Assembly: GCA_963749445.1 (NCBI GenBank)
Contig: CAVVMJ010000010.1
Coordinates: 254,021-318,020, forward strand
Direction of reading: 5' to 3'
Length of the DNA: 64,000 nucleotides
Source: an uncultured bacterium
Lineage (GTDB): Bacteria; Patescibacteriota; Doudnabacteria; UBA920
Part shown: piece after piece, positions 25,310-44,941 of the stretch
Layout of the letters: every line of letters starts with the position of its first letter
Numbering within the stretch: the first letter of the stretch is position 1
The notes under the pieces: generated by a model
What the model was told of the DNA's origin: nothing
What the model saw: only the letters and a program-made list of their open reading frames with translations
Databases searched by the model: none
Program-made: the position numbers and the translations under genes

Positions 25310-26227
25310 ATGGCTTCGGAACCCACAATCTGTTTCGGCCAACAACCTGCCGGGTTTTTCCCCAAGCGGTTTTTGGCGGCCAAAATCAATACCGCAAAAA
25401 AATTGCGCGATGAAATCGGCGGCAAGGTCGTCTTTTTTTATCACGACAGCGATGCCGACTATCGAGAAACGATTACGATTATGCGCGACCGAACGACCGG
25501 CGCGGAAGTCCGCTTAAATTTTACCCAGGAAAACAAACTGCAAAAAAAATTCTCCCCGCTTTACTTAAAAAGAATCCCTGCGGGCTGGAAAGGAGAAATA
25601 TTAAAACAGCTTCCGCGCTTTGCCGACAAGCCGCTGATAGATATTTTTACATCCACCGATGAAAAAACCGCAGCCGATTTTTGCCTGGAAATGTACCGCA
25701 AAATGAGATTACTTGAAAGAATTGGAATTTTAAGATCATCTGACAAAAATTTTAGGCAGAAAGCCCAAGACCTTGCCATAGACTACTTTGCCGATATAGA
25801 ATACCAGGGCGAAGTTGTGCGGGCCAAGGTTGAATCATTGCAAACTCCAACCACCTCCCCCCGCTTCGCGGGGTACTCCTCCTTAAAAAAGGAGGAGAGG
25901 CTCCGCACTTCATCGGATATTTCGGATGACCGCGGAGCTTCCCCTCCTACCAAGGAGGGGTGGACGCCGGAGGCGGACGGGGTGGTTGGAGTTCTCCACG
26001 AAGGCGGCAATAAATTTATCCGCTTTCCGATAAACCAGCCCATCCAAAAATCGCAAAAATCCCCCAACCGAGACCAAAGGTTTGCCTGGATGCAGTCAGT
26101 GATAAATTGCACCCACTACATTTACGGCGAAGGCGAAAAGGAATACCTGGATATTTCTAAATTTCCCGATATCAAATTCATTGACCGCGAAAAAATCGAC
26201 GACCCAAGTTATGCATGGTTAGGTTAA
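25310..26227 (+). CDS. BshC-like protein (short form) carrying an in-frame GC-rich repeat insertion
   Basis: 305 aa. The N-terminal segment ICFGQQPAGFF ... VVFFYHDSDADYRE resembles the BshC motifs ITGQQAGL and VFWVAGEDHDFAE. The family-B repeat at 25850..25998 is embedded in-frame. It sits directly upstream of bshB- and bshA-like genes. Confidence 0.4.
   Translation: MASEPTICFGQQPAGFFPKRFLAAKINTAKKLRDEIGGKVVFFYHDSDADYRETITIMRDRTTGAEVRLNFTQENKLQKKFSPLYLKRIPAGWKGEILKQLPRFADKPLIDIFTSTDEKTAADFCLEMYRKMRLLERIGILRSSDKNFRQKAQDLAIDYFADIEYQGEVVRAKVESLQTPTTSPRFAGYSSLKKEERLRTSSDISDDRGASPPTKEGWTPEADGVVGVLHEGGNKFIRFPINQPIQKSQKSPNRDQRFAWMQSVINCTHYIYGEGEKEYLDISKFPDIKFIDREKIDDPSYAWLG
25850..25998. repeat. 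GC-rich palindromic repeat, family B (copy B1), inserted in-frame in a CDS
   Basis: Shares CAAGGAGGGGTGGACGCCG.AGGCGGACGG ... GGGGTGGTTGGA with 28455..28550, and AAGCCTTGGCGA.GG.GGGGGTG with 37985..38075. Has internal dyads (ctcctccttaaaaaaggaggag). Confidence 0.7.
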
Positions 26228-26310
26228 GGATTACGGATTAATACGGATATACAGATAACTGCAGTATCCGTAATCCGTATATCCGTATTAAATCAGTAAT
26301 CTATAACCCT

Positions 26311-27003
26311 ATGAAAATCCTCGCAATCGGCGCGCACCCCGACGACGTGGAGTTCGGCGCCGCTCCGCTTTTAATCAAGGAAATCCAAAAAGGCAACCAG
26401 GCCAAAATCGCGGTGTGTTCTTTGGGCGAGGCCGGCACCAGCGGCACGCCCCAAGGCCGCAAAAAAGAAGCAACCGATGCGGCTAACGCCATCGGCGCGG
26501 AAATTGAATTCCTAAATTTAGGCGGCGACTGCCACATAGAATGCAATCCGCGAAACGGTTTTAAAATTGCCGCGATTTTAAGAAAATTTAAACCTAACAT
26601 TGTGCTTGCGCCGTCGCTGATGGAAAACCAGCATCCCGACCATTTGAATTTGGCAAAACTCACCCGCGATGCCTGCAGATTCGCGCGCTACGGCGGATTA
26701 AAAGAACTTAAAAGCTTACCGACGCACAAGGTCGGTATGTTGTATTATTACGGTTCCAGCGCAGAATGGGACAAAAAACCGGACCTTTTGGTTGATGTCA
26801 CGGACGTGGAAAGGCAGTGGCAAAAGGCCATGGCCTGCCACAAGAGCCAAATGAAAACCAAACAATACATAGATTTAATTTTTAGCAAATCGCGGGCACT
26901 CGGCGCTTCCTGCGGCGTCAAATACGCGGTGGGGCTTTATTCCAACGATCCGATAAGGCTTGATAGGCTTTCCGATATTACTCTGTCTTCAAGAAATTAT
27001 TAA
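26311..27003 (+). CDS. bshB: LmbE/PIG-L family N-acetylglucosaminyl deacetylase, BshB1-like
   Basis: HPDDVEFG metal-site motif and HPDH. Collinear similarity to B. subtilis BshB1 (YpjG). Confidence 0.7.
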   Translation: MKILAIGAHPDDVEFGAAPLLIKEIQKGNQAKIAVCSLGEAGTSGTPQGRKKEATDAANAIGAEIEFLNLGGDCHIECNPRNGFKIAAILRKFKPNIVLAPSLMENQHPDHLNLAKLTRDACRFARYGGLKELKSLPTHKVGMLYYYGSSAEWDKKPDLLVDVTDVERQWQKAMACHKSQMKTKQYIDLIFSKSRALGASCGVKYAVGLYSNDPIRLDRLSDITLSSRNY

Positions 27004-27096
27004 TATGAGATACCAATATACTAATACATGCGAATAATACTAATCAGTTTGCATTCGTATTATTAGTATCATTAGTACCATTGGTATATTAGTATC

Positions 27097-28230
27097 ATGA
27101 CTATGAAAATCGGCATTGTCTGCTGGCCTTCCATCGGCGGCAGCGGCGTGGTGGCCACCAATTTGGGCAATGAATTGGCCCGGTTAGGGCACCGGGTGCA
27201 TTTTATTTCCTACGAAAGGCCGTTTTTGCTCAACTTGCGGGCCAAAAACGTGTTTTTCCACCAGGTCAAAATAAACGAGTATTCGCTTTTTAAATATCCC
27301 GACTACACCCTGCCTTTGGCGGAAACCATTGTCAACGTCCAAGAAAAATATGGCTTGGATGTTTTGCACGTGCACTACGCGGTGCCGCACGCCACAGCCG
27401 CGCTTTTGGCGCGCCGCATTATGAGGCAAACCAACATTCCCCTGCCTAAGATAGTCACCACCCTGCACGGCACGGATATTACCCTGTTCGCCAGCGACAA
27501 AAGCATGTTTTCCACCATCAAATATTCCATTGAGCGCTCGCACTGCGTGACCGCGGTTTCGCAAAATTTAAAAAACCAGACCGTCAAAATTTTCAGGATC
27601 CAAAAGCCAATCCATGTAATTTATAATTTTTATAATCCGGTTTTAGTTAAAATTTCGCGCGAAAAAGTTAGACGACGGCTAAAAATCAAACCCGACGATT
27701 TCCTCGCCATCCATTTATCCAACCTCCGCCCGGTCAAGCGCATTCCGGACTTGCTTAAAATTGCCGCGCTGCTGAAAAAACAACGTAAATTTAAATTGCT
27801 AATTCTGGCCGGCGAGCCGTTTGCCAAGTACCGGCCTCTGGTAAAAAAATTGCGGCTGAATAATGTTTTGGTCAGAGAAAACGTCAAAGATATTCAAAAT
27901 TATTTAAACGCGTCCGATGCCGGCATTTACACTTCGCAGGACGAAAGCTTCGGCATGGGCATTTTGGAAACTATGTCTTACGGCAAACCGGTGCTGGCCA
28001 CGCGCGCCGGCGGCATCCCGGAAGTTATGCGCGACAAAATTGACGGATTTTTGCTCAAAATCGGCGACACCAAAAGTTTTGCGCAAAAATTGGAATTGCT
28101 AATGAATAACCCCGGGCTCACAAAAAAACTCGGCCAAAATGCCGGGTTGCGGGCCAAAGAAAAATTTTCCGCCGGCGTAATAGTAAAAGATTACGTCAAA
28201 CTCTATACCCGTACCTGCGGCAAATTTTAA
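27097..28230 (+). CDS. bshA: GT4 glycosyltransferase, BshA-like
   Basis: N-terminal MKIGIVCWPSIGGSGVVATNLGNELARLGHRVHFIS closely matches the BshA N-terminus. C-terminal GT4 EX7E region (ESFGMGILETMSYGKPVLA). Confidence 0.7.
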   Translation: MTMKIGIVCWPSIGGSGVVATNLGNELARLGHRVHFISYERPFLLNLRAKNVFFHQVKINEYSLFKYPDYTLPLAETIVNVQEKYGLDVLHVHYAVPHATAALLARRIMRQTNIPLPKIVTTLHGTDITLFASDKSMFSTIKYSIERSHCVTAVSQNLKNQTVKIFRIQKPIHVIYNFYNPVLVKISREKVRRRLKIKPDDFLAIHLSNLRPVKRIPDLLKIAALLKKQRKFKLLILAGEPFAKYRPLVKKLRLNNVLVRENVKDIQNYLNASDAGIYTSQDESFGMGILETMSYGKPVLATRAGGIPEVMRDKIDGFLLKIGDTKSFAQKLELLMNNPGLTKKLGQNAGLRAKEKFSAGVIVKDYVKLYTRTCGKF

Positions 28231-28295
28231 TAAAAAATTTTCTTCCGCTAAAATTTTATTACGACTTTTGCCGCAATTGCGGCAAAAGTCGTAAT

Positions 28296-29048
28296 TTATT
28301 TCGTATTCCATTCAATCAACTTGCCTGCCTGAATTTCAACCGGATCCGCTTTGCGTAAATTTTTTAGCTGCTGGCTGTTTAAAATTTTATAGTGTTTCGC
28401 TTTATCCAAATAATCCGGCAGATCCGCCAAATCCTTTTCCGTGGTGCGCCAATCAGCGCTTCCGCTCCCCTTCTTTTCAAGGAGGGGTGGACGCCGCAGG
28501 CGGACGGCTTGTCCTCCGAAGCCTTGGCGAAGGTGGGGGTGGTTGGAACTAAACGGGTGTTTATCGAAAAATCTCAGATCAAACGGCGCGGAGTATTCCC
28601 GCAGCGTCTTTCTGCCGCTGTCCAAAAAATATTCGTGGAAATACGACAACGACAATTCACGGATAGTTTTATATATCGGTTCGCGATAACGCAGCACCGC
28701 GTGGTTGGTTTTGCTAATCGCGCCCCAGCAGCCGAACTGCTTAAACAAGGCCACTACGTGATCTAAATCGTCATCTGTCGAACGTAAATCCAGTAAAAAC
28801 GGCTTATACCCATGAAATTCCAAAATTGCCGCGGCCAAAAGCGCGCCTTCCATACAGTGGGCTTTACCGATTTTTAAAACCTCCCGCGGGCTGCGGCACT
28901 CCACGCCGTCCTTGGCCGGATTATGCCTAATTTTAAACGCCAAAAAATCCTGAATTTTTTTGGGCGAATCCAGACTTTTGAATACTTTTATTTCCCGAGG
29001 TGTATAAAGAAGCATTTTGTGCCTGATTCTGTTTGTGACGGCCGTCAC
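28296..29048 (-). CDS. hypothetical protein with a possible papain/transglutaminase-like Cys-His core; contains an in-frame family-B repeat
   Basis: 250 aa with a GKAHCMEGALLAAAIL motif. The repeat at 28455..28550 is embedded in opposite orientation to copy B1. The N-terminus overlaps a perfect palindrome, so the true start is probably the internal MLLYTP. Confidence 0.4.
   Translation of the reverse strand: MTAVTNRIRHKMLLYTPREIKVFKSLDSPKKIQDFLAFKIRHNPAKDGVECRSPREVLKIGKAHCMEGALLAAAILEFHGYKPFLLDLRSTDDDLDHVVALFKQFGCWGAISKTNHAVLRYREPIYKTIRELSLSYFHEYFLDSGRKTLREYSAPFDLRFFDKHPFSSNHPHLRQGFGGQAVRLRRPPLLEKKGSGSADWRTTEKDLADLPDYLDKAKHYKILNSQQLKNLRKADPVEIQAGKLIEWNTK
28455..28550. repeat. GC-rich palindromic repeat, family B (copy B2), in-frame within a CDS
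   Basis: See 25850..25998. Confidence 0.7.
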
Positions 29049-29058
29049 AAACAGAATC
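29023..29058. promoter_or_regulatory. perfect 34-36-bp palindrome GATTCTGTTTGTGACGGCCGTCACAAACAGAATC at the junction of two tandem genes
   Basis: Read directly. Shares the core TGACGGCCGTCA with 4219..4256. Confidence 0.5.
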
Positions 29059-29060
29059 AG

Positions 29061-30406: not shown

Positions 30407-30447
30407 ACTGTCTTAATTATAGCAAAAAATTGCCTTCTTGCCGATTT

Positions 30448-31056: not shown

Positions 31057-31105
31057 AAAGGTACTATATCAGTATTTCGCTACTTTTTAAAAACGTGGGC
31101 TTAAA

Positions 31106-31207
31106 GTTGGTGGGCATCTTCACGCGGTAACAAAGGCTAATCGATATTTATAAGCAGGCGCATCAGCCATTGTCAACAATAAACAACCTTAAAGATTCCC
31201 ATCAAAC
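31106..31207. repeat. TIR-element copy D4 (GTTGGTGGGCATCTTCACG ... TTAAAGATTCCCATCAAAC), partly degenerate
   Basis: Terminal motifs match family D, with imperfect pairing. Confidence 0.6.
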
Positions 31208-31450
31208 ATATTGGCAATCAGGGAGGTAACTTAAACAATTATTGCCTAAGATAAGACCAAAATCAATAAAATCATTGACAAAATTATTTAGATGTGACAT
31301 AATGTATAAACTAATCAATCTATTAGACTCGTACTCATACTTATCTGAAATACTGAAATATTTCCGACCTTTGAGAAAACGGGTCGGAAATATTATTTAT
31401 GACACCACCCTTCGGCTCCGCTCAGGGTTTCGGTGTCTAAATTGTAAAAC

Positions 31451-32852: not shown

Positions 32853-32857
32853 TCGAT

Positions 32858-33445: not shown

Positions 33446-34930
33446 CTACCTCGTCTGCCACTTCCGGTCGTCTTTGGCCATAAGCTCGTCCGACTGCTTG
33501 GGGCCGTTACGCCCAGGTTTGTACTTATAAAGCGGCAGGCTCCTAAACACCGGGCTGTCGGTAATGCTGTCCACGAATTTCCAGGCGGCCTCTATTTCGT
33601 CGCTACGGATAAATAAGCGCTGGTCGCCCTCCATAAAATCGAGCAGCAGCCGTTCGTAAGCCGACGGGATTTCGCTCTGGAAATTTTTTTGGTAGCCAAA
33701 CTCGTAATCGCCCTGGTGGAGCTGGATGCCAAAGCCGGGCACTTTGTTGTTGAGCCGCAAATGCACGGACTCGTCCGGCTGGATACGGAAAGTCAAAACA
33801 TTGGCCGCGCAGCCTTCAAACAGGCAGCGCGCCTGTTCGCGGAAATGGATGGAAATTTCCGTGAGTTTTTTGCTCAGGCGTTTGCCGGTGCGCAAATAAA
33901 ACGGCACGCCGGCCCAGCGCGGCAAATTTATGTAAGTTTTTAGGGCAAAAAAAGTTTCCGTGGCGCTTGTCCCGCCCTTGGGGCTTAGGCTTTTGATGTC
34001 TTTGGCATAACCTTAGTACTGGCCCAAAACCAGCCGCGCCGGCAACTTGTCCGGCCCCAGAATCTGGAGCGCGTTAAGAACGCGCAGTTTTTCGTTGCGG
34101 ATCATGTCCGCAGTCAGCTGGTACGGCTCTTCCATGGCAATCAACGCCAACATTTGCAAAATATGATTTTGTAAAAAATCTTTAATCGCCCCGGTCCGGT
34201 CGTAATACGCGGCGCGGCCGCCCACGCTGTCTTTTTCCAAAACCGAAATTTCCACGTGCTCAATGAAGCGATTATTCCACAGCGGCTCAAACAAAGAATT
34301 GGCAAAACGCACCACCATCAAATTCTGCACCGTTTCCTTGCCCGCGTAATGGTCAATGCGGTAAATTTGGTCTTCGGCAAAATACTTGAGCAACAGGGCG
34401 TTTAAATCCCGCGCGGATTTTAAATTAAAGCCAAAAGGTTTCTCCGCCAAAATCCGGACTTTGCGCCCGTGTGCCGCGCAAGCGGAAAGCAGGCCGGTCT
34501 GCTTTAAAATTCGGGCGATGGAAGCGAAAAACTGCGGGCTGGTTGCAAAATAATATAACCGGTTAAAACACTTATGCCGAGGCTGTTCTTTGGTTTCCAA
34601 AAGTTTAGTTAGCGGGCCAAAAGACGATACATCCGTAAAATCGCCCTGAAAATAAGTCAAATTGCGCAAAAAATGCTGGCGCTGTTTTTGGGTGATTTTT
34701 TTAATGACCGAAGATTTTTTAACAATGAAGTCAAGATATTTTTCGCTGGTCAGAGGCCTCCTGCCCACGCAAACCAGCTGGAAATCTGCCGGCAGCATGC
34801 CTTCCTGGTCCATATGAAGTAGCGCCGGCAGCAGGTAGTCGGAGGACAAATCGCCGGTGGCGCCAAAGATGGTCAAAACCGTGGGCGGCAACTTTTGAAT
34901 TAAATAATGGAACCCAAAGCCATGTTTCAT
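33446..34930 (-). pseudogene. zwf: glucose-6-phosphate dehydrogenase (zwf) interrupted by a single in-frame TAA at 34013..34015
   Basis: N-terminal ORF has GATGDL, EKPFG, RIDHYAGKE and ends ...LVLGQY*. The same frame continues as GYAKDIKSLSPKGGTSATETFFALKTYINLPRWAGVPFYLRTGKRL..., which is the G6PD C-domain. The two halves are in one frame. Confidence 0.8.
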
Positions 34931-34989: not shown

Positions 34990-35090
34990 TTGATGGGCAC
35001 CTTCGAGGTTGTAGTTTAGTTGACGGTCATAGACGCGCTGATTAATGAAAATCGACAAACCTATTTTGTCGCACGAAGGTGCCCATCAAG
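34990..35090. repeat. TIR-element copy D5 (TTGATGGGCACCTTCGAGG ... CACGAAGGTGCCCATCAAG)
   Basis: Terminal inverted repeats with compensatory substitutions (GGGCACCTTCG / CGAAGGTGCCC). Confidence 0.7.
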
Positions 35091-35161
35091 CGCATCAAAA
35101 AAATTTATGCCAACTCCGGCATAATAGTGTATAATACCAATAACCATTAACAATTTTTTCT

Positions 35162-36482: not shown

Positions 36483-36753
36483 TTTAGATGATACTGATAT
36501 ACGGATTAATACGGATGATACCGATAATACTAATACGGTTAAATATCCGTATTATCGGTATTATCAGTATGCATCAGTATATCGGTATCTCATGTATATT
36601 ATAGCAAATTATTGACATTATTGTAAATTAATGCTATATTTTAAGCTACTTCCCGAAAAGTAGCGCGGGATTTTTTAGTGAACTAATTAAAAACAATTTC
36701 GAATTGCGTATTACGAATTCTTAATCCGTAATGCGTAATCCGTAATACTCAAA

Positions 36754-38706
36754 ATGAAAAGGGATAACATACGAAACATCGCCATTATCGCCCACGTGGA
36801 CCACGGCAAGACTACGCTGGTGGATGCCATGCTAAAGCAAACCCACAGCATCAAAGACGACGCCGCGGATTTGGTAATGGACAGTATGGATTTGGAGCGC
36901 GAGCGCGGCATTACTATCAAAGCAAAAAATGCATCTCTGATATATAATGGGGTAAAAATAAATATTGTAGATACGCCAGGCCACGCGGATTTTGGCGGCG
37001 AAGTGGAGAGAACTTTAAAAATGGCCGACGGCGTCCTGCTTTTGGTGGACGCCAAAGAAGGCCCAATGCCCCAAACCAAATTCGTGCTCAAAAAAGCTTT
37101 GGAGCTCGGACTTAAAGCCATTGTCGTCATCAATAAAGTGGACAAGCCCGACGCCCAGGTTGACCACAGTGTCAATCATACTTTTGATTTGTTCGTCAAA
37201 CTAAACGCCACCCACAACCAATTGGATTTTCCGATTATTTATGCTTCGGGGGTAAGGGGTCTGGCGGATTTGAATTTGGAAAATCTTTTGGAAAAAATCT
37301 CCGCCCAAGGCGGATCCGCCTCCGGCGGAAAATACTCTGGCGAACCCGACGTCTCTCCCCTGTTTGACGCCATCATCAAATACATCCCCGCCCCGGAAGT
37401 GGAAATGGAAGATGCCTTTGCCGTGCAAATTTTGGCTTTGGCTTACGACAACTACTTGGGCCGCCTGGGCATCGGCAAAGTGTTTTCGGGGAGCTGTAAA
37501 AAAAACCAGAACGCCATGCTGATTAAACAGAGCGGCGAGCGGATGACCTCTAAAATTACTTCCCTGCAAATGTACGAAGGCTTAAAACAAATTGACGTGG
37601 AAGAAGCCGTGGCCGGCGACATTGTGGCTTTTGGCGGCTTTGACGACATCCACATTGGCGACGTTTTAACCGATCCCCTAAATCCCAAAACCCTGCCGCC
37701 CGTGGAAATTGAGCCGCCCACAATAAAGATGACCTTTGGCGTCAACACTTCCCCGTTTGCCGGCCGCGAAGGCAAGTATGTGACCTCGCGCCAGTTGCGC
37801 GAACGCTTAATTAAGGAACTGGAAACCAATGTGGCGCTAAAGGTCCAGGGCTTGGAACAGGGTTCGGATTCGTTTTTGGTGTCCGGCCGCGGCGAACTGC
37901 ATTTGGCGGTTTTAGTGGAAACCATGCGGCGCGAAGGTTTTGAACTGCAGGTTTCCCAACCCGAAGTTATCTACCATTATCAAAGGCCGGACGGTTCTTC
38001 GTCCCCTCTCCCTTTGGGAGAGGGCCAGCCTGCCCGCCAAAGCCTTGGCGACGGCGGGGGTGAGGGTTCGGAGAAAATGACAAAACTCGAGCCATACGAA
38101 ATTCTAACGATTGATGTCCCTTCCGAACACCAGGGCGTCGTAATTGAAGAACTCGGCAAGCGCGGCGGACAAATGCAAATCCTGGAAACCGGCCACGGCG
38201 GCGACGTGCACGCCGAATATTTAATCCCTACGCGTGGCTTGATTGGCTTAAAAAACCTGCTGATGACGCGCACCCGCGGCACCGTGGTCATAAATAATCT
38301 TTTTGACAGTTATAGGCCCGTGCACGACATAGACACCCGCAGCAACGAACACGGCAGCTTGATTGCCTCAGAGTCCGGCCAAAGCAACTCTTACGGCTTA
38401 AACAACGCCCAGCAGCGCGGCATGTTGTTTATCGGCCCGGCCGTTGACGTTTACGAGGGCATGGTGGTGGGCAAAAATTCCGTGGACAGCGATTTGGAAT
38501 TAAACGTCTGCCGCACCAAAAAACTCACCAACATCCGCTCCTCCAGCTCCGATGAAGCCATTATTTTAACTCCTCCGCGTCCGGTGGAACTGGACTTCGC
38601 TCTGGAATACATCGGCGCCGACGAGCTGGTAGAAGTTACGCCGCAGTCCATCAGGATAAGAAAGCGGATATTAAACGCCACCGAACGCAAACGCGCCGCG
38701 AAATAA
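36754..38706 (+). CDS. typA: translational GTPase TypA/BipA, with two in-frame insertions derived from repeat elements
   Basis: G1 AHVDHGKTT, G3 DTPGH, G4 NKVD. Collinear with E. coli BipA throughout. It is 650 aa rather than the usual about 605, because of inserts at about 37300..37340 (GGCGGATCCGCC palindrome, peptide AQGGSASGGKYSGEP) and about 37985..38075 (family-B repeat, peptide RPDGSSSPLPLGEGQPARQSLGDGGGEGSE). Confidence 0.9.
   Translation: MKRDNIRNIAIIAHVDHGKTTLVDAMLKQTHSIKDDAADLVMDSMDLERERGITIKAKNASLIYNGVKINIVDTPGHADFGGEVERTLKMADGVLLLVDAKEGPMPQTKFVLKKALELGLKAIVVINKVDKPDAQVDHSVNHTFDLFVKLNATHNQLDFPIIYASGVRGLADLNLENLLEKISAQGGSASGGKYSGEPDVSPLFDAIIKYIPAPEVEMEDAFAVQILALAYDNYLGRLGIGKVFSGSCKKNQNAMLIKQSGERMTSKITSLQMYEGLKQIDVEEAVAGDIVAFGGFDDIHIGDVLTDPLNPKTLPPVEIEPPTIKMTFGVNTSPFAGREGKYVTSRQLRERLIKELETNVALKVQGLEQGSDSFLVSGRGELHLAVLVETMRREGFELQVSQPEVIYHYQRPDGSSSPLPLGEGQPARQSLGDGGGEGSEKMTKLEPYEILTIDVPSEHQGVVIEELGKRGGQMQILETGHGGDVHAEYLIPTRGLIGLKNLLMTRTRGTVVINNLFDSYRPVHDIDTRSNEHGSLIASESGQSNSYGLNNAQQRGMLFIGPAVDVYEGMVVGKNSVDSDLELNVCRTKKLTNIRSSSSDEAIILTPPRPVELDFALEYIGADELVEVTPQSIRIRKRILNATERKRAAK
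37985..38075. repeat. GC-rich palindromic repeat, family B (copy B3), in-frame inside typA
   Basis: cccctctccctttgggagaggg dyad plus aagccttggcgacggcgggggtgagggttcgg, similar to copy B2. Confidence 0.6.
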
Positions 38707-38790: not shown

Positions 38791-38795
38791 TAAAT

Positions 38796-39314
38796 TTACC
38801 ACTCCTTGTCGTCCGCGCTCGGGCCGTAAATTTTCGGCACCGCGATGTTGTTTAAGCGCATATAAACCGTAAGCTGGCCGCGGTGGTGGACCAAATGGTT
38901 AATAGTATCGCAGACAGTGTTCTTTTTGCTGTCTGTAGCCAAAACCTGATCTTTCATTTTTAAGGAAAAAGGCTTTTCCAAATCCGCGTCCGAAACTTTT
39001 TCCACGGCCCTCTTAGCTGCCGCGAGATTATTGTCAAAAAACTTGAGCATTTCTAAGGTCTTAGTTGGCCGCCCCATTTTAAACGTGGCAAAGTCAATAT
39101 CCCCTTTTTCAATAACGTGCGCGATCCACGCCGGAATACCGGCCACAGTTAAAACCAAATGGCCCATCTTCATGGACTTTTCGTGCGGCTTGTATTCATA
39201 CAAACTTTCCGGCACGCGCTCCAGACATTTCCTGCTGGCAGGCGCCTCGGCCTCCAGTTCCTTTAAATATAACCGTCCTAATGTATCGCTCATAATAGTC
39301 TCCTTTTCCGCCAA
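38796..39314 (-). CDS. DinB/YfiT-like (DinB_2) damage-inducible family protein
   Basis: 172 aa with the HLVHHRGQLTVYMRL motif. The true start may be the internal MSDTL. Confidence 0.6.
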   Translation of the reverse strand: MAEKETIMSDTLGRLYLKELEAEAPASRKCLERVPESLYEYKPHEKSMKMGHLVLTVAGIPAWIAHVIEKGDIDFATFKMGRPTKTLEMLKFFDNNLAAAKRAVEKVSDADLEKPFSLKMKDQVLATDSKKNTVCDTINHLVHHRGQLTVYMRLNNIAVPKIYGPSADDKEW

Positions 39315-39521
39315 AGACGGATCCGCCTTTGGCAGACTTTAATTTTTGATAATATTCTTCCAACGCTGTTCCAATAAATGGTTTGCCATATAAACGGCCC
39401 TAAAAATGTAAACGGATTCCGCGCGCCAACGTTACACATAAAGGAAGCTTTAACAAATTCAACAAAATCGCGTATCTGTAATATATGAAAGGTCGAAATT
39501 AATGTAGAAAGACATAAACTT

Positions 39522-39710: not shown

Positions 39711-39880
39711 ATGCCCGCCTCCCCTGTCCGCGCCACCTAAAAAATCACCCCGAGCTTTTTCGAAGGGTGATTTTTTTGTTTGGCAAAACTCCGCACACAA
39801 TAAAGCTTCGGTTATATTTTACCTACCTATCCTTGATGGGTCGGGTGGGGGCGAACCCACAATAGGCATATATTTTTGAA

Positions 39881-40009
39881 TTATTTCTCAATAAAAAACA
39901 AACCCGTCGCAACGACTAAAAAAATAATGCCAGCCCTCAGCCAAACCTCGCTTTGCGCCGGGTTAGTTTTGTGTAAGCTCAAAGTGAAGAAATTATACCA
40001 AAATGTCAT
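39881..40009 (-). CDS. small hydrophobic peptide (42 aa) with an LSLHKTNPAQS motif, paralogous to 41251..41361
   Basis: ATG-to-TAA ORF below the track cutoff. Shares an about 50-nt conserved segment (ctttgcRccgggttRgttttgYgYaagctcaaRRtgaRg) with the second copy. Coding status uncertain. Confidence 0.35.
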   Translation of the reverse strand: MTFWYNFFTLSLHKTNPAQSEVWLRAGIIFLVVATGLFFIEK

Positions 40010-40117
40010 TTTAAAGTATATTTGGAGGTGTCTATGCCTTGGATTTCCATGTACTTGATTAAATTCGGTTTGGCAATATTGTTTAGAAATTCTATTGCTT
40101 TCAGCAAATCCGGCATT

Positions 40118-40366
40118 TTAGCTTTTTTTACCGGCTGACCAAAGACCTTTCTTTAGAAGCTGGTCATTTTTTAAAACGCCAATTTGTTTGTCCAGCTGTT
40201 TCTTTTCTTCCCCGGTTTTCTTATGCACGCCTCCGCCGTCCTTCATTTTGGCCAGCATGATAATTAAATTTTCGCGGTATTTTTTAAGCTCGTAATAATC
40301 GTCTACCCTCTCCTGTTCTTTTCTCTTTTCGTTCAAAGTTGGCCTGCCTGTTCTTTTGTTTGGCAT
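40118..40366 (-). CDS. hypothetical small basic protein (82 aa)
   Basis: ORF in an AT-rich islet. Lys/Glu-rich and helical. Confidence 0.4.
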   Translation of the reverse strand: MPNKRTGRPTLNEKRKEQERVDDYYELKKYRENLIIMLAKMKDGGGVHKKTGEEKKQLDKQIGVLKNDQLLKKGLWSAGKKS

Positions 40367-40379
40367 ATATTTTATAATG

Positions 40380-40562
40380 TTAATACTTATACGGCGTGCC
40401 TTTAAAGCCTAATTTTAGCATTTCTTCCGGCGAACGCAAAAAGGGATTTTCGCGATCCAAATTTTTAATAAATTCTTGGATCAAATGTTCCGTTTCCCCC
40501 GGCTCAAAATTAAATTCAGGTTCAAATACTTCTCTGGGTACAAACAGGCCCGGGCGATTCAT
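40380..40562 (-). CDS. hypothetical small acidic protein (60 aa)
   Basis: ORF in an AT-rich islet. Confidence 0.35.
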   Translation of the reverse strand: MNRPGLFVPREVFEPEFNFEPGETEHLIQEFIKNLDRENPFLRSPEEMLKLGFKGTPYKY

Positions 40563-40604
40563 CTCTAAAACTATTTCCTCCTCGTCGGGGTTATGCAGAG
40601 TTTA

Positions 40605-41228
40605 TCAACGAGTTGTCAATTTGAAAGTTTCAGTAATAGTTTTCCAGAATTTGATTGCGGAAAAACCATAATAATCATTTATTGCCGGGGATTCAATTTT
40701 AACAAAAGAGTTATCTAAATAAAATTCAACAAAATTTCTACCCCGGAGGTCTAATTCAGGGTCGTCTTTAAGAAGTTCAGGATCGCTATTAAGAAATCTA
40801 TATTTAATTCCTTGGGGGTTGGTAAACACGGCAGCTGATTCCCATTCCTGCTCTGGAGTGGAAGATTTTTTTACCTCAACATAGAAAGGAGCCGGTTTAA
40901 CTGGCTCTTTCATCTCTGGCGGTGCACCAGGAGGGATTTCCGCAAAACCAGACCATCCGATTTCTATTGAGCAAAAATTTTCATTGATTTTCTTTACTTT
41001 TATATCATCCCAATTTTTAAATACCGGAATCTTAAAAGTAACGCCGGAAATACCATCACAATAAAAATCTTGATTTTCAATTACCCCACTAGTATTCGGT
41101 GATGTAGAAACAGTATTATCCATAGTTTTGTGAAAAGGGTTAAATATTGCAACAGCCAAAATTAATATCAATAAAAGTAGTAGTAGTAATAGTATTAGTA
41201 TAGCAAATATTGAAAGTTTTTTTAACAT
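40605..41228 (-). CDS. hypothetical secreted or membrane-anchored protein with a poly-Leu N-terminal helix
   Basis: 207 aa. N-terminal LLLLLLLLLILILAVAIF anchor, then a hydrophilic domain. No recognisable family. Confidence 0.45.
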   Translation of the reverse strand: MLKKLSIFAILILLLLLLLLILILAVAIFNPFHKTMDNTVSTSPNTSGVIENQDFYCDGISGVTFKIPVFKNWDDIKVKKINENFCSIEIGWSGFAEIPPGAPPEMKEPVKPAPFYVEVKKSSTPEQEWESAAVFTNPQGIKYRFLNSDPELLKDDPELDLRGRNFVEFYLDNSFVKIESPAINDYYGFSAIKFWKTITETFKLTTR

Positions 41229-41250
41229 TATTGGGTGCCAGCTTGGCCAT

Positions 41251-41361
41251 CTAGTGGGGATGCTTGCCGGAACTTTGCACCGGGTTGGTTTTGCGCAAGC
41301 TCAAGATGAGGAAAATTATTCCGAGGGCGGCGAAGATTGTGGAGATGATGTTTGGGATCAT
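41251..41361 (-). CDS. small hydrophobic peptide (36 aa, MIPNIISTIFAALGIIFLILSLRKTNPVQSSGKHPH)
   Basis: ATG-to-TAG ORF. Paralogous segment to 39881..40009. Confidence 0.35.
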   Translation of the reverse strand: MIPNIISTIFAALGIIFLILSLRKTNPVQSSGKHPH

Positions 41362-41399
41362 ATTTAATATCTATACGGCGTGATTTTATTTAAACCATA

Positions 41400-41654
41400 C
41401 TATTTCACCAACCCCATATCTTTTGCCCAGGCTGCCAGTTGCCGGTCTCTCTTCATGTCTTTCTTAAGGATGGTTACAGCCTCGTCCAATGCTTTTTGCA
41501 ATTCAGTCCTGATTTCCTGTTCCTTATTTGGAATTTTTTCCAGTAAATCCTGGAATTCTAAAATAGGATCCTTAAAATTATCAAACTGATCGTTTTTGTA
41601 CATGCGCAGCACCGTTTCGGCACGTGTTATAAGTTCTTGATCATTGTTTGTCAT
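41400..41654 (-). CDS. hypothetical small helical protein (84 aa)
   Basis: ORF in an AT-rich islet. Charged and helical. No family recognised. Confidence 0.4.
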   Translation of the reverse strand: MTNNDQELITRAETVLRMYKNDQFDNFKDPILEFQDLLEKIPNKEQEIRTELQKALDEAVTILKKDMKRDRQLAAWAKDMGLVK

Positions 41655-42249
41655 ATATTTGTAGGGTTATTTATAAATTTAATTGAAAGAAGGAGTAATG
41701 GATATTATATATTTTAATAATGTTTTTTACAGTTCTCGACTTGGAACTTTTTAAAGTTGGGGTTGTTTTGTTTTTGCTTGTGTTGCATATTATCCATAGT
41801 CGCATAAAACTTATCAAACCTGTTCGCCTTTTGCAATCTTGTTTTTCCAGTAATCTATCGCTTTAATGCTGTGCTCAAAATATTGATCGAAATTGTAGTC
41901 CCTGAGCAAACTCAAGCACAATCCTCTAAGCATTTTGTCGGTTTCTATTAAACTTTTCATACGTTTATTTACTCATACTATACAATAAAAAGTAAATTTT
42001 AAAAGTTTTATTACATTTTAATATTATCCATATTTTTCCCCATTAGCTTATATAACTAATTTTACATTTTTCGAAATAATTGAAAGCTTTTTCTCTATTT
42101 TATTTAAGCATATACCCAAAGCCTGGTTATTGTAAATATCCCTTATTTTAGGCAATATTAAAAGGCCAGCCCTTCGGAAGGCTGAGGGCTGCGCCGGGCT
42201 GACACTTTAAAACATCCTTACAAACTTGAGAATGTAAGGATGATATTAT

Positions 42250-42459
42250 TCATCCGATAATATTCTGCACGCGGCCGACTTGGCCGCTTTGTAGGCGGAC
42301 TTTGATGCCGTGGGGGTGGAATTGGGAGTTGGTTAAAATGTCCGCCACCAAGCCGCGTGTGAGTTTGCCGGTTCTTTGATCTTCCTTAAGCACAATGTCC
42401 ACTTCCAGTCCGGGTGATATGTTTTCGCGATTTTGTCCGTCCATAATATATCCCTCCAC
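42250..42459 (-). CDS. YwbE-family (DUF2196) small protein
   Basis: GQNRENISPGLEVDIVLKEDQRTGKLTRGLVADILTNSQFHPHGIKVRLQSGQVGRVQNI matches the YwbE consensus along its full length. Confidence 0.8.
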   Translation of the reverse strand: MEGYIMDGQNRENISPGLEVDIVLKEDQRTGKLTRGLVADILTNSQFHPHGIKVRLQSGQVGRVQNIIG

Positions 42460-42461
42460 TC

Positions 42462-42548
42462 CTCCTCGCCCCTCGATTTCACTCGGGGCGACCCTGAGCG
42501 TAAGCCGAATGGGTCGGATGCACTCGTCGTCGGTCGGGATGGAATACC
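42462..42548. repeat. GC-rich palindromic repeat, family A (copy A3)
   Basis: About 85% identical to the right half of 13545..13715. Confidence 0.7.
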
Positions 42549-43778
42549 CTAAGCGGCGGTTTCTTTATCCCGCCGCAAAAGCCAGTAGCCCAAACCCGCG
42601 GCAATTAGAGCGGCAAAGCCGCCGACGGCTAGCCCCCAGCGCGGACCAACATACTGTCCTATAAACCCGATTATCGGCCCGCCAATGGGCGTGGAGCCAA
42701 GGAAAGCCATGGCCCAAAACGACATCACCCTGCCGCGCATTTGCGGGTCGCTTTCCAGCTGCAGCGTGGTATTGCCCAGGGCCAAAAAATTTATGGAATA
42801 AAACCCAACGGCCACCATGGCTATGAGCACCAAAGTAAACTTAGGCAAAACCGCAGCCAGCAGGACGGTAACGCCAAAAAACAGCGCGGCTTTTACCAGC
42901 GCGCCCGCGGTAGTGGTTTTGCGACTGGCCGTGTATAGCCCGCCGGCTATGGAACCAACCCCCATGGCCACGGTAAGCGCGGCGTAAGTGCCGGCATTGC
43001 CGTGAAATGTAAACTGCGCCACCAGCGGCAGAATTACGGAGAACTCGTAAGTGAGCGTGCCGATTATGGCCATCATAAGCAGCGTGTCGCGCAAAATTTT
43101 GTTGGACTTGATGTATCGCCAGCCTTCGCCCAACTGGCCTTTGGCGCGTTCGGCCGCAGGAGCGGAGCTTAATTCCTTTGAACGCATCATAAACAAAGCC
43201 CCCAGCACGGCAATAAAAGAAATCGCATTAATTAAAAAACACGGCGCCAAACCCAAAGAGGCAATCACGGCGCCGGCAATGGCCGGGCCAATCACGCGCG
43301 CCAAATTCACCATAGTGGAATTCAACGAAATGGCATTGGCCACGCTGTCTTTGCCCACCATCTCAAAAATAAAAGTCTGGCGGGTGGGATTGTCTATAAC
43401 ATTGACCAATCCCAAACCCAGCGCCAAAACGTAAACCATCCACAACTGCACGCTGCCGGTTACCATGAGCAGCCACAAAATCAAAGCCAGCAGTCCGGCC
43501 GAAGTTTGGGTAAAATATAAAACTTTGCGCTTACTGAAACGGTCGGCCACGATGCCGCCCAGCGGGGCTAAAAACAGCATGGGCAAAAATTGCACCGCGG
43601 CTATAAGTCCGAGCTGAGCGCCGGAATTGGTCAGCTTAAGCACCAGCCAGGCCTGGCCAATGGTTTGCATCCAGGTGCCGCATAAAGAAACGGCCTGGCC
43701 GATAAAGTACAGGCGGTAATTACGGAGTTTAAGTGAGGCAAAAGTCTGGTTGCTGAAGTTTAAAAAATTTTTTCGCAT
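42549..43778 (-). CDS. MFS transporter
   Basis: 409 aa, 12 TMS, with MFS motif A (GGIVADRFSKRKVL). Confidence 0.75.
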   Translation of the reverse strand: MRKNFLNFSNQTFASLKLRNYRLYFIGQAVSLCGTWMQTIGQAWLVLKLTNSGAQLGLIAAVQFLPMLFLAPLGGIVADRFSKRKVLYFTQTSAGLLALILWLLMVTGSVQLWMVYVLALGLGLVNVIDNPTRQTFIFEMVGKDSVANAISLNSTMVNLARVIGPAIAGAVIASLGLAPCFLINAISFIAVLGALFMMRSKELSSAPAAERAKGQLGEGWRYIKSNKILRDTLLMMAIIGTLTYEFSVILPLVAQFTFHGNAGTYAALTVAMGVGSIAGGLYTASRKTTTAGALVKAALFFGVTVLLAAVLPKFTLVLIAMVAVGFYSINFLALGNTTLQLESDPQMRGRVMSFWAMAFLGSTPIGGPIIGFIGQYVGPRWGLAVGGFAALIAAGLGYWLLRRDKETAA

Positions 43779-43799
43779 GATGGAAATTTGATAAAAAAG

Positions 43800-43875
43800 T
43801 TTCTGTCATCCCGGAATTTTTCACGCAGGCGATTATCATCAGTCGTGAAAAATATCCGGAATGACACTGAAATGC
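43800..43875. repeat. GTCATCCCGGAAT...ATTCCGGAATGAC hairpin element (family C)
   Basis: gtcatcccggaatttttcacg ... cgtgaaaaatatccggaatgac inverted repeat. Related copies at 54655..54720 and 38712..38740. A variant (gtcattgcgagcgg) at 17755..17785. Confidence 0.55.
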
Positions 43876-43876
43876 T

Positions 43877-44941
43877 TTAAATAAACAGCTGCGCCAAAAT
43901 CAAGTCCAACAAAACCCGCGGCGGGGTGGAGGTGGTTTTAAGCTCCTTGTCCAGCGCCGCCAATTTATTGAGCGTCTGCTTGACTATATCCGGCTTAAAC
44001 CGGCCAGCGATTTTTTTGAGCACATAAAGCCGGCCGCTTTTCCAAGCCGTAAGGCTTAAAATTTTGTCATCCGAGATTTTGCGGGCCAGCAAATCCGAAA
44101 GCGCGTAAATATTGCGGAACTGTTCGCTGAGCAGAGCGTTTAGCTGGATAATTTGCGCCTTAGTGTCGCCCTCGCTTAAAAACTTACCGATAAGCTCCAA
44201 AGCCGCCTGTTTGTTATGGTCGCCTATGGCATTGATAATTTTAAACACATCCACTTCCCCGTTTTCGGAAACCAGATTGTTAACGTCCGCTTCTTTGATT
44301 TCCTGACCGTTTGCGTATGCGATTAATTTGCGGATTTCGGAATCCGCCTGCCACAGACTGTAAATTTCTTCGCCCGCGATAAGTTTGCCGCCCCCTCGAC
44401 TTTGCTCGGGGCGGCCCTGAGCCTTGCCGAATGGGCCGCCCGCCCGGATTTCTTTGGCGTCATCCCGCCCCAATTTTTTGGCCAAAAACGCTGCCGCGCC
44501 CTTGCTTATTGTGCTGTTTAACTCTTTGGCGCGGCTGGTAATCCATTTATCCAAATCCGCGCCGTGCGGCAAATCAAATTGTTTAACTTCCGCGCCCTTG
44601 TGCGCCAGCCACTGCTTATTATTGGACAGGCGCTTGTCTACTTTATCCTCCTCAAACACAATAACATTTTTGCCGACCACTAGCTTATCGGCAATTTCCT
44701 GATTATAATCATATCCGGCCAAAAGATTTTGTAGAACCACGACTTTGGTTTTGGAAAACAAATCCTGGCCAAAAAGCCCTGACAGTTGCGGCCGCTCCTC
44801 TGCCGAAACAAAAAATTCCGCCTCGGCTTTATGCTTTTTGGCCAAAGAGGAAATCTGGCTGTCTTTAGAAAAATTGTCCGGTCCGAGAAAGAAAAACAAC
44901 ATAAATTTTGGTGGGTTGGGTGGGGATCGGACCCACGACAC
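43877..44941 (-). CDS. holA: DNA polymerase III subunit delta (HolA), carrying an in-frame family-A repeat insertion
   Basis: The N-domain (LFFFLGPDNF...KVVVLQN) and C-domain (VFKIINAIGDHNKQAALELIGKFLSEGDTKAQIIQLNALLSEQFRNI) match HolA. A segment of about 25 aa (DAKEIRAGGPFGKAQGRPEQSRGGG) is encoded by the repeat at 44385..44448. The likely start is the internal MLFFFLG. Confidence 0.65.
   Translation of the reverse strand: MSWVRSPPNPPKFMLFFFLGPDNFSKDSQISSLAKKHKAEAEFFVSAEERPQLSGLFGQDLFSKTKVVVLQNLLAGYDYNQEIADKLVVGKNVIVFEEDKVDKRLSNNKQWLAHKGAEVKQFDLPHGADLDKWITSRAKELNSTISKGAAAFLAKKLGRDDAKEIRAGGPFGKAQGRPEQSRGGGKLIAGEEIYSLWQADSEIRKLIAYANGQEIKEADVNNLVSENGEVDVFKIINAIGDHNKQAALELIGKFLSEGDTKAQIIQLNALLSEQFRNIYALSDLLARKISDDKILSLTAWKSGRLYVLKKIAGRFKPDIVKQTLNKLAALDKELKTTSTPPRVLLDLILAQLFI
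44385..44448. repeat. GC-rich palindromic repeat, family A (partial copy A4), in-frame within holA
   Basis: ctcgactttgctcggggcggccctgagccttgccgaatgggcc is about 80% identical to the core of A2/A3. Confidence 0.6.

What the first reader, a model, noticed from the sequence alone, without database searches (positions are those of the whole stretch)
25850..44448. GC-rich palindromic repeats inserted in-frame inside protein-coding genes (typA, holA, a bshC-like ORF, a hypothetical ORF)
Family B (CAAGGAGGGGTGGACGCCG.AGGCGGACGG...GGGGTGGTTGGA, and AAGCCTTGGCGA.GG.GGGGGTG) occurs inside the bshC-like ORF (25850-25998), inside ORF 28296..29048 in the opposite orientation (28455-28550), and inside typA (37985-38075). 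In typA it adds about 30 aa (RPDGSSSPLPLGEGQPARQSLGDGGGEGSE) at a position where E. coli BipA is continuous. Family A, otherwise intergenic at 13545-13715 and 42462-42548, is inserted in holA (44385-44448) and adds about 25 aa. In every case the host reading frame is preserved and the flanking protein sequence stays collinear with orthologs. This is the behaviour described for Rickettsia palindromic elements (RPEs). Here it appears in what looks like a different lineage.
Basis: partly seen in the sequence, partly recalled or inferred. Interest (0 to 1): 0.85.

Follow-up and report, generated by a model that had tools for sequence, protein, structure and literature searches.

The report
In-frame hairpin repeats inside CPR genes
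A tiny-genome Patescibacteria (Doudnabacteria-like) bacterium carries short GC-rich hairpin repeats that have landed in frame inside essential genes such as typA and holA, much as Rickettsia palindromic elements do, and their core motifs recur across many bacterial phyla.

Summary
The window comes from a Doudnabacteria-like CPR genome. Five intragenic inserts (150, 102, 30, 90 and 48 nt) are all multiples of three. Each is absent from, or replaced by a different insert in, syntenic orthologues of four related genomes. Each also shares nucleotide similarity with other copies, intergenic or in unrelated genes.

- A48, a two-hairpin unit.
- B150, a near-perfect 150-nt palindrome.
- E, the hairpin CCCTCTCCC...GGGAGAGGG.

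Units nest inside one another. Close B150 copies sit in frame in nfo and argS on related metagenome contigs. The A and B cores (CCCTGAGCGAAGTCGAAGGG; GGTGGACGCCGNAGGCGGAC) occur across many phyla and in metagenomes, and the A stem covaries perfectly.

The most likely explanation is non-autonomous mobile hairpin units. Only in-frame, stop-free copies in permissive loops survive, and these are translated. No transposase was found, and translation is inferred rather than shown.

The behaviour matches RPEs and intragenic REPs, but the elements are not members of those families. I found no description of this in CPR. Corrections: the holA insert is 16 aa, not about 25, and the "bshC-like" label is unverified.

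The parts
25844..25993 (+). B150: a 150-nt near-perfect palindromic element (termini ACTCCAACCACC / GGTGGTTGGAGT) inserted in frame (50 codons) in the conserved 'bshC-like' ORF 25310-26227.
   Evidence: Inverted repeat I3. Fold -100.8 kcal/mol, z=-8.9. Absent in the L003, L124 and L125 orthologues. Only 2 of its 6 frames are open, and the host uses an open one. Homologous copies lie in nfo (L139) and argS (L220).
28449..28550 (-). A 102-nt mosaic made of a B terminus, a B2 unit and a B1 core. It is inserted in frame (34 aa) in the transglutaminase-like ORF 28296-29048, in the opposite orientation to the bshC copy relative to its host.
   Evidence: Blastn to 25937-25980 (86%) and to typA 38023-38062 (80%). 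The site is empty in L001 and L125 and holds different inserts in L003 and L124.
37300..37329 (+). C30: the double hairpin TCCGCCCAAGGCGGA TCCGCCTCCGGCGGA, inserted in frame (10 aa, SAQGGSASGG) in the G domain of typA.
   Evidence: Family D2. Absent in L001, L003, L124 and L125 and unique among the 120 closest TypA homologues. Fold z=-4.2. pLDDT below 50 at residues 187-193.
37978..38085 (+). The typA loop after H408: 36 aa where the closest orthologues have 6, a net gain of 30 aa. It contains the family E hairpin 38002-38024 (TCCCCTCTCCCTTTGGGAGAGGG) and the GGTGAGGGT tail at 38059-38067.
   Evidence: Alignments. E. coli BipA is continuous here. The E hairpin is shared with the typA genes of L124 and L125 (87-91% identity).
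38029..38058 (+). B2: a 30-nt unit (CCTGCCCGCCAAAGCCTTGGCGACGGCGGG) nested inside the typA E element.
   Evidence: Present in the window and absent from the otherwise homologous L124 and L125 inserts. 80% identical to 28502-28541.
44387..44434 (-). A48: a two-hairpin 48-nt unit inserted in frame (16 aa) in holA. It is bounded by the 7-nt direct repeat GCCGCCC (44387-44393 and 44435-44441), so its placement is ambiguous by up to 7 nt.
   Evidence: Absent in the holA genes of L001, L002, L003 and L124. 86% identical to the intergenic copy at 13625-13674. The same 48-nt unit is nested in the L220 B element.
13545..13715 (+). An intergenic composite element between the marR-like gene and the HlyD-like gene. 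It contains an A48 unit (about 13622-13670) plus flanking modules.
42452..42548 (+). An intergenic composite copy (A48 plus the GGATGCACTCG..GTCGGTCGGG module). It lies in the spacer between the MFS gene stop codon (42549) and the ywbE-like start codon (42444), on the transcribed strand of a co-directional gene pair.
40..90 (+). A partial copy of the right-hand module of the composite A element (GCGAAGTCGGGTCGGGGTGG) at the window edge. It is intergenic.
   Evidence: read directly from the sequence.
21907..21936 (.). An intergenic C30 copy with compensatory stem changes (CCCGCC/GGCGGG).
39307..39336 (-). A C30 copy just upstream of the DinB-family gene. Its stems pair fully only with G-U pairs on the minus (transcribed) strand.
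8491..8520 (+). A C30 copy with doubly compensated stems (TCCCGC/GCGGGA and TCCGGC/GCCGGA). It sits at or just before the N-terminus of ORF 8476-9681, and whether it is coding is uncertain.

Best explanation
These are short, non-autonomous, GC-rich hairpin repeat units of 30, 48 and about 150 nt that combine into mosaics. They have spread within this Patescibacteria lineage into intergenic spacers and also into protein-coding genes. Only intragenic copies that meet three conditions survive selection: a length that is a multiple of three, no stop codon in the host frame, and a location in a structurally permissive loop. Surviving copies are therefore transcribed and translated as extra, probably disordered, surface loops. 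New units tend to land in or next to existing hairpins, which produces nested elements and recurrent 'hot' sites.

Shown: repeat identity, insert versus empty sites, frame preservation, nesting, hairpin covariation, and wide distribution of the core motifs. Inferred: mobility in trans by an unidentified enzyme (plausibly one that recognises hairpins or single-stranded DNA), translation of the inserts, and their neutrality.
For: - Nucleotide similarity between copies is far beyond chance.
- Orthologous sites are empty in close relatives for all five inserts.
- In nine syntenic gene families across five related genomes, nearly every indel of 6 aa or more is a GC-rich hairpin unit. Different genomes carry different units at the same site.
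- The same B element occurs in frame in four unrelated genes: the bshC-like ORF, the transglutaminase-like ORF, nfo and argS.
- In L124, the E family occupies typA, the bshC-like ORF and ORF28.
- Nesting: B2 sits inside E in typA, and A48 sits inside B in L220.
- A48 is the same discrete 48-nt unit in holA and in L220.
- B150 has only 2 open frames of 6, and all three intragenic copies use an open one.
- Hairpin stems are kept by compensatory changes in the C30 copies and in the A core, where positions 4/17 are T-A in 97 cases, C-G in 28, T-G in 2 and unpaired in none.
- The core motifs are mostly extragenic elsewhere: 22% vs 61% and 33% vs 55% of positions lie in long open frames, motif versus random. 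This fits a selection filter on coding insertions.
- The inserts map to low-confidence coil between secondary-structure elements of TypA and to a junction that is continuous in E. coli BipA.
Against: - No transposase, RAYT or IS-like gene was found among 39 ORFs scanned in the window.
- No gene family recurs next to the motifs in 240 loci.
- Target-site duplications are not clear. There is only a 7-nt direct repeat at holA, within GC-rich sequence.
- Copy numbers inside the 64-kb window are small, 3-4 per family.
- The typA site after residue 408 also holds inserts in relatives that do not look repeat-derived.
- The E insert is shared with more distant relatives (L124, L125) but is missing from the closest ones. 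This needs either precise loss or repeated gain.
- Translation of the inserts is not demonstrated, and the AlphaFold model is poor (mean pLDDT 59.6).
Confidence: 0.8

Rival explanations
1. The segments are ordinary lineage-specific loops or low-complexity expansions that arose in place, for example by slippage or point mutation. They are not repeat insertions.
For: The typA 408 site carries very diverse inserts in 22 of 120 homologues, and some look like normal loop extensions. Another typA indel (LDGTPLTAEA, 16 of 120) is clade-specific and not hairpin-like.
Against: The window inserts share 80-86% nucleotide identity with copies in other genes and in intergenic DNA. They also share it with copies in nfo and argS on other contigs. 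The closest orthologues have clean empty sites. The units have discrete, repeated boundaries.
Confidence: 0.04
2. The units spread by recombination rather than by a transposase. Candidate routes are gene conversion, template switching or repair synthesis primed at GC-rich hairpins, and uptake of foreign DNA carrying the same widespread motifs. Copies would then be pasted at sites that can form or already hold a hairpin.
For: No transposase was found. There is no consistent TSD. Units nest precisely in hairpin loops. Sites are used repeatedly. The core motifs are shared across phyla and also occur on 56 viral or proviral contigs.
Against: Discrete units of fixed length (30, 48 and 144-150 nt) with defined termini appear in unrelated sequence contexts. 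That pattern is more typical of an element-specific excision and insertion activity. No donor-recipient homology is visible in the flanks.
Confidence: 0.2
3. The inserts are not translated. They would be removed from the mRNA or bypassed by the ribosome, as with T4 gene 60 or the mitochondrial GC-rich 'byp' elements, so the proteins would be of normal length.
For: The units are compact, stable hairpins in a moderate-GC (about 48%) genome. One C30 copy keeps its pairing only through G-U pairs on the transcribed strand, which hints at RNA-level structure.
Against: All five window inserts, and the nfo and argS copies, are multiples of three and free of stops in the host frame. B150 is always read in one of its only two open frames. 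Excision or bypass would not require this. No take-off/landing codon pairs or intron features were seen, and Rfam finds nothing.
Confidence: 0.04
4. The inserts were retained because they are useful. They could add flexible surface loops for CPR-specific interactions, or act as mRNA structures that tune translation or stability.
For: The E-type insert in typA is conserved across three genomes, with mostly synonymous or loop-position changes. Hairpin stems are maintained by compensatory changes. The intergenic copies sit in co-transcribed spacers.
Against: The same units occur in either orientation and in different frames, giving unrelated peptides. Presence or absence varies among very close relatives. 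The sites hold unrelated units in different genomes. This is the pattern expected for tolerated selfish DNA.
Confidence: 0.1
5. The inserts are assembly or binning artefacts, with repeats collapsed or chimerically joined into genes.
For: The window comes from a metagenome-assembled contig, and repeats can mislead assemblers.
Against: Both flanks of every insert continue the same gene in frame. Independent assemblies from other samples carry homologous inserts at the same typA site (L124, L125) and homologous elements in other genes (L139, L220).
Confidence: 0.02

Closest known systems
Rickettsia palindromic elements (RPE-1 to RPE-10; Ogata et al., as summarised in PMC10969869 and PMC3733652)
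   Same: Both are dispersed palindromic repeats of up to about 150 bp. Both are found in intergenic DNA and in frame inside housekeeping genes of a small-genome bacterium. In both, flanks stay collinear and the host ORF stays intact. No cognate transposase is known.
   Different: The phylum is unrelated (Patescibacteria) and the composition is GC-rich (60-77% GC in a genome of about 48%). The elements are modular, with units of 30 and 48 nt as well as about 150 nt that nest in one another. The same unit is used in both orientations and in different frames, so there is no conserved peptide. The core motifs are shared across many phyla. Homology to RPEs was not tested and is not expected.
Intragenic GTAG-/CGTC-tagged REPs (Di Nocera et al. 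2013, PMC3733652)
   Same: Both involve short palindromic units, often as dimers encoding 20-30 aa, inserted in frame in genes. In that study the hosts were often replication or repair genes, in Opitutus terrae, Thauera, Thioalkalivibrio and R. conorii. Both are mostly extragenic, and G-T pairing suggests transcription.
   Different: The units here lack a conserved terminal GTAG or CGTC tetranucleotide. No RAYT or 'REPtron' was seen in the window. The lineage (CPR) is not covered by that survey.
MITEs that make in-frame fusions (Coxiella QMITEs, PMC5896051; enterobacterial RU/ERIC units, PMC2759123)
   Same: B150 has terminal inverted repeats and is of MITE size. In both cases an intragenic copy extends the host protein.
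   Different: There is no clear target-site duplication and no parent IS with matching ends. The smaller units (C30, A48) are far below MITE size and have no TIRs.

Membership tests
Rickettsia palindromic elements (RPE) | A dispersed repeat family of about 100-150 bp able to form a long hairpin. | tested here: met
   B150 (25844-25993) folds as a 150-nt palindrome with z=-8.9. Homologous copies occur in L139 and L220 and a partial copy at 28449-28550.
Rickettsia palindromic elements (RPE) | In-frame insertion inside ORFs whose flanks stay collinear with orthologues. | tested here: met
   There are five inserts in four window genes, plus the nfo and argS copies. All are multiples of 3 and stop-free, and orthologues show empty sites.
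Rickettsia palindromic elements (RPE) | Belongs to Rickettsia/Rickettsiales genomes and is sequence-related to the RPE consensus families. | tested here: not met
   The host is Doudnabacteria-like Patescibacteria. Sequence comparison with RPE consensuses could not be run because no Rickettsia data are in the tools. The GC-rich composition makes homology unlikely. This is therefore an analogue, not a member.
Rickettsia palindromic elements (RPE) | The insert lies in a surface loop compatible with the host fold. | tested here: inconclusive
   The typA inserts fall between secondary-structure elements and have pLDDT below 50. The larger one (after H408) also lies at a junction that is continuous in E. 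coli BipA. However, the model is poor (mean pLDDT 59.6) and no exposure was computed.
REP / BIME (RAYT-mobilised) | A 20-40-nt imperfect palindrome with a conserved terminal GTAG or CGTC tetranucleotide. | tested here: not met
   C30 (TCCGCC..GGCGGA x2) and A48 have no such terminal tag, read directly. A GTAG/CGTC occurs only inside the extra module of the two intergenic A composites.
REP / BIME (RAYT-mobilised) | A cognate RAYT (Y1 transposase) gene flanked by the repeats. | tested here: inconclusive
   No such domain was found in 39 window ORFs, and no recurrent neighbour gene was found in 240 loci. The rest of the 372-kb contig and genome could not be read.
MITE | Terminal inverted repeats. 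| tested here: met
   B150 has termini ACTCCAACCACC / GGTGGTTGGAGT. This is not met for C30 and A48.
MITE | Target-site duplication and a parent IS with the same ends. | tested here: inconclusive
   There is a 7-nt direct repeat at holA only and none evident at B150. No IS was seen.

The most novel reading that the evidence does not exclude
The A, B, C and E units may be local members of an undescribed, pan-bacterial class of ultra-short hairpin mobile elements. Their defining cores are CCCTGAGCGAAGTCGAAGGG and GGAGGGGTGGACGCCGNAGGCGGACGGGGTGG. On this reading they move between phyla, possibly on phages, without a recognisable transposase. In streamlined CPR genomes they would be a major source of protein indels in essential genes.
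Probability: 0.3. Interest if true: 0.8.

Novelty: new variant of a known kind. Interest (0 to 1): 0.62.

Why it matters
CPR/Patescibacteria genomes are about 1 Mb and highly streamlined. Yet here essential translation and replication genes (typA, holA, and argS and nfo in relatives) tolerate repeated invasion by selfish hairpin DNA.

This has three consequences.
- It gives a concrete mechanism for the many lineage-specific insertions seen in CPR proteins.
- It warns that such loops are not functional domains.
- It explains many spurious 'hypothetical proteins' made of peptides such as LSEVEG, PFDFAQG and NHPVRLRRPPL.

The same 20-nt cores, with covarying stems, occur from Acidobacteriota to cyanobacteria and on viral contigs. 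I found no literature trace of them. That points to a widespread, unexplained mobile or structural DNA/RNA motif, and its mobilising enzyme could now be sought.

Tried and rejected
- A plain GC-content scan for further inserts was not specific, giving 189 GC-rich segments.
- The C30 copy at 39.3 kb first looked intragenic in a small ORF, but that ORF is not orthologous to its positional counterpart in L001. I treat the copy as intergenic.
- Peptide-level global searches for hosts of the B element failed. One found no shared words. The other gave 3 uninformative hits, which were spurious repeat ORFs.
- The AlphaFold2 model of TypA was too weak (pLDDT 59.6) to justify a fold search.
- Rfam found nothing on the window, on 18 loci, or on the elements themselves at a lax threshold.
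- Guilt-by-association clustering of ORFs near the motifs found only ubiquitous families, plus a DUF559-like ORF (assigned by eye from its sequence, not scanned) next to B1 cores in a few loci.
- Exact-sequence and peptide literature searches returned nothing.
- Among the listed papers that mention CPR, none also contains the MITE or REP terms.
- A look-up of the window's own TypA contig failed, so the rest of the genome could not be censused.
Full report
**Identity of the window.** TypA (36754-38706) is 100% identical to a protein from a 372-kb NCBI/ENA contig. Its best named relatives are 'Candidatus Doudnabacteria' and 'Patescibacteria group' MAGs. Gene content fits CPR. It includes a type IV pilus/T2SS operon, a PIG-L plus GT4 pair, 6PGD and G6PD, and several glycosyltransferase genes. 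I also read a RuBisCO-like ORF by eye from the translation but did not scan it. Mean GC is about 48%.

**The observation.** Self-blastn of the reported segments against the window confirms the repeats.
- Family A: 13610-13700 vs 42452-42542, 86% over 92 nt, E=4e-21.
- Family A in holA: 44389-44438 vs 13625-13674, 86% over 50 nt, E=6e-10.
- Family B: 25937-25980 vs 28464-28507, 86% over 44 nt, E=2e-8.
- Family B in typA: 28502-28541 vs 38023-38062, 80% over 40 nt, E=4e-5.

The repeat finder shows that 25843-25993 is itself an inverted repeat. This is the double hairpin TCCGCCnnnGGCGGA-TCCGCCnnnGGCGGA, found at about 8491, 21907, 37300 and 39307. The 37300 copy lies inside typA.

**Insert versus empty site.** Looking up TypA homologues gave syntenic DNA from four related genomes: L001/L002, L003, L124 and L125. 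Protein and codon alignments show the following.
- holA carries 48 extra nt (16 aa, GGPFGKAQGRPEQSRG) that are absent from all the orthologues. The insert is bounded by a 7-nt direct repeat.
- The 13-aa N-terminal extension of the listed holA ORF overlaps a tRNA, so the true start is the internal Met.
- ORF 28296-29048 (weak transglutaminase-like hit) carries 102 extra nt. The site is empty in L001 and L125. L003 and L124 hold different hairpin inserts at the same place.
- The 'bshC-like' ORF carries the 150-nt palindrome 25844-25993, which is absent in L003, L124 and L125. Those three genomes each carry a different insert at another site of the same gene, where the window is empty.
- typA carries two inserts. 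One is C30 (10 aa) in the G domain. It is absent from all four relatives and unique among the 120 closest homologues.
- The other typA insert is a net +30 aa after H408.

Across nine syntenic gene families, nearly every indel of 6 aa or more is one of these GC-rich hairpin units. The exceptions seen were a clade-specific 10-aa typA loop and L003's own typA insert.

**Anatomy.**
- A48 is a discrete 48-nt two-hairpin unit. The same unit, with the same boundaries, is the holA insert, the core of both intergenic composites, and a nested insert inside a B element on contig L220.
- B150 has termini ACTCCAACCACC / GGTGGTTGGAGT and several internal hairpins. The 28.4-kb copy is a 102-nt derivative joined to a B2 unit.
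- The typA loop is a family E hairpin (TCCCCTCTCCCTTTGGGAGAGGG ... GGTGAGGGT). It is shared with the typA genes of L124 and L125 at 87-91% identity.
- A 30-nt B2 unit (38029-38058) has inserted into that E hairpin in the window only.
- In L124, the E family also sits in the bshC-like gene and in ORF28.

Folding shows that B150 (z=-8.9) and C30 (z=-4.2) are strong palindromes. The other copies contain only short hairpins (z -0.1 to -2.0), so 'palindromic' is only partly apt for them.

**Stem covariation.** Stems are maintained by compensatory changes. C30 copies read TCCCGC/GCGGGA, TCCGGC/GCCGGA and CCCGCC/GGCGGG against the consensus TCCGCC/GGCGGA. The 39.3-kb copy pairs fully only with G-U pairs on the transcribed strand.

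**Copies in other genes elsewhere.** Two hits are close homologues of B150.
- L139 is a 144-nt copy in frame inside deoxyribonuclease IV. The nfo profile is interrupted between positions about 59 and 66.
- L220 is a 190-nt copy, made of B plus a nested A48, in frame inside arginine-tRNA ligase.

B150 has only two open frames of six, and all three intragenic copies use one of them. The B element is therefore found in frame in four unrelated genes.

**Pan-bacterial cores.** Hits came from Acidobacteriota, Chloroflexota, Patescibacteria, Bacteroidota, Alphaproteobacteria, cyanobacteria and other groups.
- 113 of the 127 matches carry the loop GAGCGAAGTCGA, although the pattern allowed 64 variants.
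- The fourth and seventeenth positions covary without exception: T-A 97, C-G 28, T-G 2, unpaired 0.
- The B1 core sits in a conserved context in many metagenomes: ATTCCCCTCCnnnGGAGGGGTGGACGCCGnAGGCGGACGGGGTGGT.
- C30-like hairpins lie next to A cores in a Patescibacteria contig and in a Kiritimatiellae contig.
- The A core is on 56 IMG/VR viral contigs and the B1 core on 3.
- In these loci both cores are depleted from long open frames relative to random positions: 22% vs 61% for A and 33% vs 55% for B1.

So the motifs are mostly extragenic, with a minority inside genes.

**What was not found.**
- Rfam has no family for any of the elements.
- No paper in the searchable library contains the core sequences or their typical peptides.
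- Among the listed papers that mention CPR, none also contains the MITE or REP terms.

**Mechanism.** The best-supported reading has three parts.
- These are non-autonomous hairpin units that spread within the lineage.
- Coding insertions are filtered by selection for frame, absence of stops and a permissive location.
- The survivors are translated as extra loops.

The selection filter is supported by the length and frame data. It is also supported by the depletion of the cores from ORFs elsewhere. In addition, the typA inserts fall in predicted coil with pLDDT below 50 (a weak model).

Recurrent use of the same sites, together with nesting, suggests either structural permissiveness or targeting of existing hairpins. 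I cannot separate the two.

The mobilising activity is unknown. No transposase domain was found in 39 window ORFs, and no gene recurs beside the motifs. The only lead is an ORF I take by eye to be a DUF559-like endonuclease; it was not scanned against Pfam. It lies directly downstream of the B1 core in a few loci. A recombination or template-switch route is therefore a live sub-rival. Excision or ribosomal bypass is unlikely given the strict 3n, stop-free pattern, but it has not been excluded experimentally.

**History of the typA site.** After residue 408, 22 of the 120 closest homologues carry an insert. These are very diverse, and some are not repeat-like. The E-type insert is shared by the window, L124 and L125 (76-80% TypA identity) but is missing from the closest relatives (83-89% identity). 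This requires either precise loss or repeated gain.

**Comparison with known systems.** The behaviour is that of RPEs. It also matches the intragenic REPs that Di Nocera et al. described in Opitutus, Thauera, Thioalkalivibrio and Rickettsia (PMC3733652; review PMC10969869), and MITE-derived in-frame fusions (PMC5896051, PMC2759123).

Membership fails or is untested in each case. The lineage is wrong for RPEs and homology was not tested. There is no GTAG/CGTC tag and no RAYT was seen, which argues against REPs. TIRs are present only in B150, with no clear TSD or parent IS, which argues against MITEs.

**Verdict.** I classify this as a new variant of a known kind. The elements are modular, GC-rich hairpin units of 3n length. 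They nest in one another, occupy both orientations and different frames, belong to motif families shared across phyla, and occur in CPR, where I found no prior description.

Noticed in passing
window 33446-34930 (-), stop codon at 34013-34015: The G6PD gene is interrupted by a single in-frame TAA where orthologues have R, Q or E (GQY*GY...). The same frame then continues collinear with the orthologues to the normal end. This could be a nonsense mutation or pseudogene, a sequencing error, or read-through.
   Followed up: partly
window 49395-49883: A four-helix-bundle protein gene (TIGR02436, the family of 23S-rRNA intervening-sequence proteins; 49439-49828, minus strand) is flanked by 42-nt inverted repeats at 49395-49436 and 49842-49883. 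It sits between the T2SSF and T2SSE genes, exactly where relative L124 has a PDDEXK_3 nuclease gene instead. It looks like a small mobile cassette.
   Followed up: partly
window 3987-4108, 8302-8423, 15257-15379, 31087-31208, about 34990-35092: A fifth repeat family ('D') consists of intergenic elements of about 120 nt. They have conserved 18-nt inverted termini (TTGATGGGCATCTTCGTG ... CACGAAGATGCCCATCAA), a variable interior, and compensatory changes in the terminal stem. Rfam gives only chance-level matches.
   Followed up: partly
window 46850-46926: A perfect tandem array of the octamer AATTCTCT (about 9 copies) lies in the spacer between the pilN-like ORF and pilM in the pilus operon. It is a possible slippage or phase-variation tract.
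   Followed up: no
window 40000-42200: An AT-rich island (GC 0.34-0.38, against about 0.48 elsewhere) holds three ORFs without any Pfam hit. It lies between the DinB-family gene region and ywbE and may be foreign DNA.
   Followed up: no
window 36490-36589: A 100-nt AT-rich palindrome with 46-nt arms (83% complementary) lies in the divergent spacer between the AI-2E transporter gene and typA.
   Followed up: no
window 47968-48107 and 51633-51776: Two repeat segments of 47 and 56 nt within a span of about 140 nt recur at two places, at 84-89% identity. One copy follows pilM and the other follows the T2SSE ATPase gene. They contain the motif TTAACTCCGCCTAAATTTTGCC.
   Followed up: no
loci L133, L167, L171, L198, L212: An ORF that looks like a DUF559 endonuclease (judged by eye from its sequence, not scanned against Pfam) starts directly downstream of the pan-bacterial B1 core in several unrelated metagenome contigs. 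It is a possible associated nuclease.
   Followed up: partly
L058 5478-5497, L070 289-308: In two CPR genomes the A-core hairpin abuts the 5' end of a tRNA gene. In the window, a tRNA gene (44912-44984) lies immediately upstream of holA, about 470 nt from its A48 insert.
   Followed up: no
L124 5403-6929 (G6PD) and L124 1929-3113 (GT4): Relative L124 carries further private GC-rich inserts: RVAGGKAGKPNPSRAARAEA in G6PD and RGAGSG in the GT4 glycosyltransferase. The phenomenon therefore affects other genes in sister genomes.
   Followed up: partly
loci L128, L147, L191, L242: In some metagenome contigs the B1 core is part of tandem arrays with periods of about 45-90 nt or 197-235 nt. This organisation differs from the dispersed single copies seen here.
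   Followed up: no
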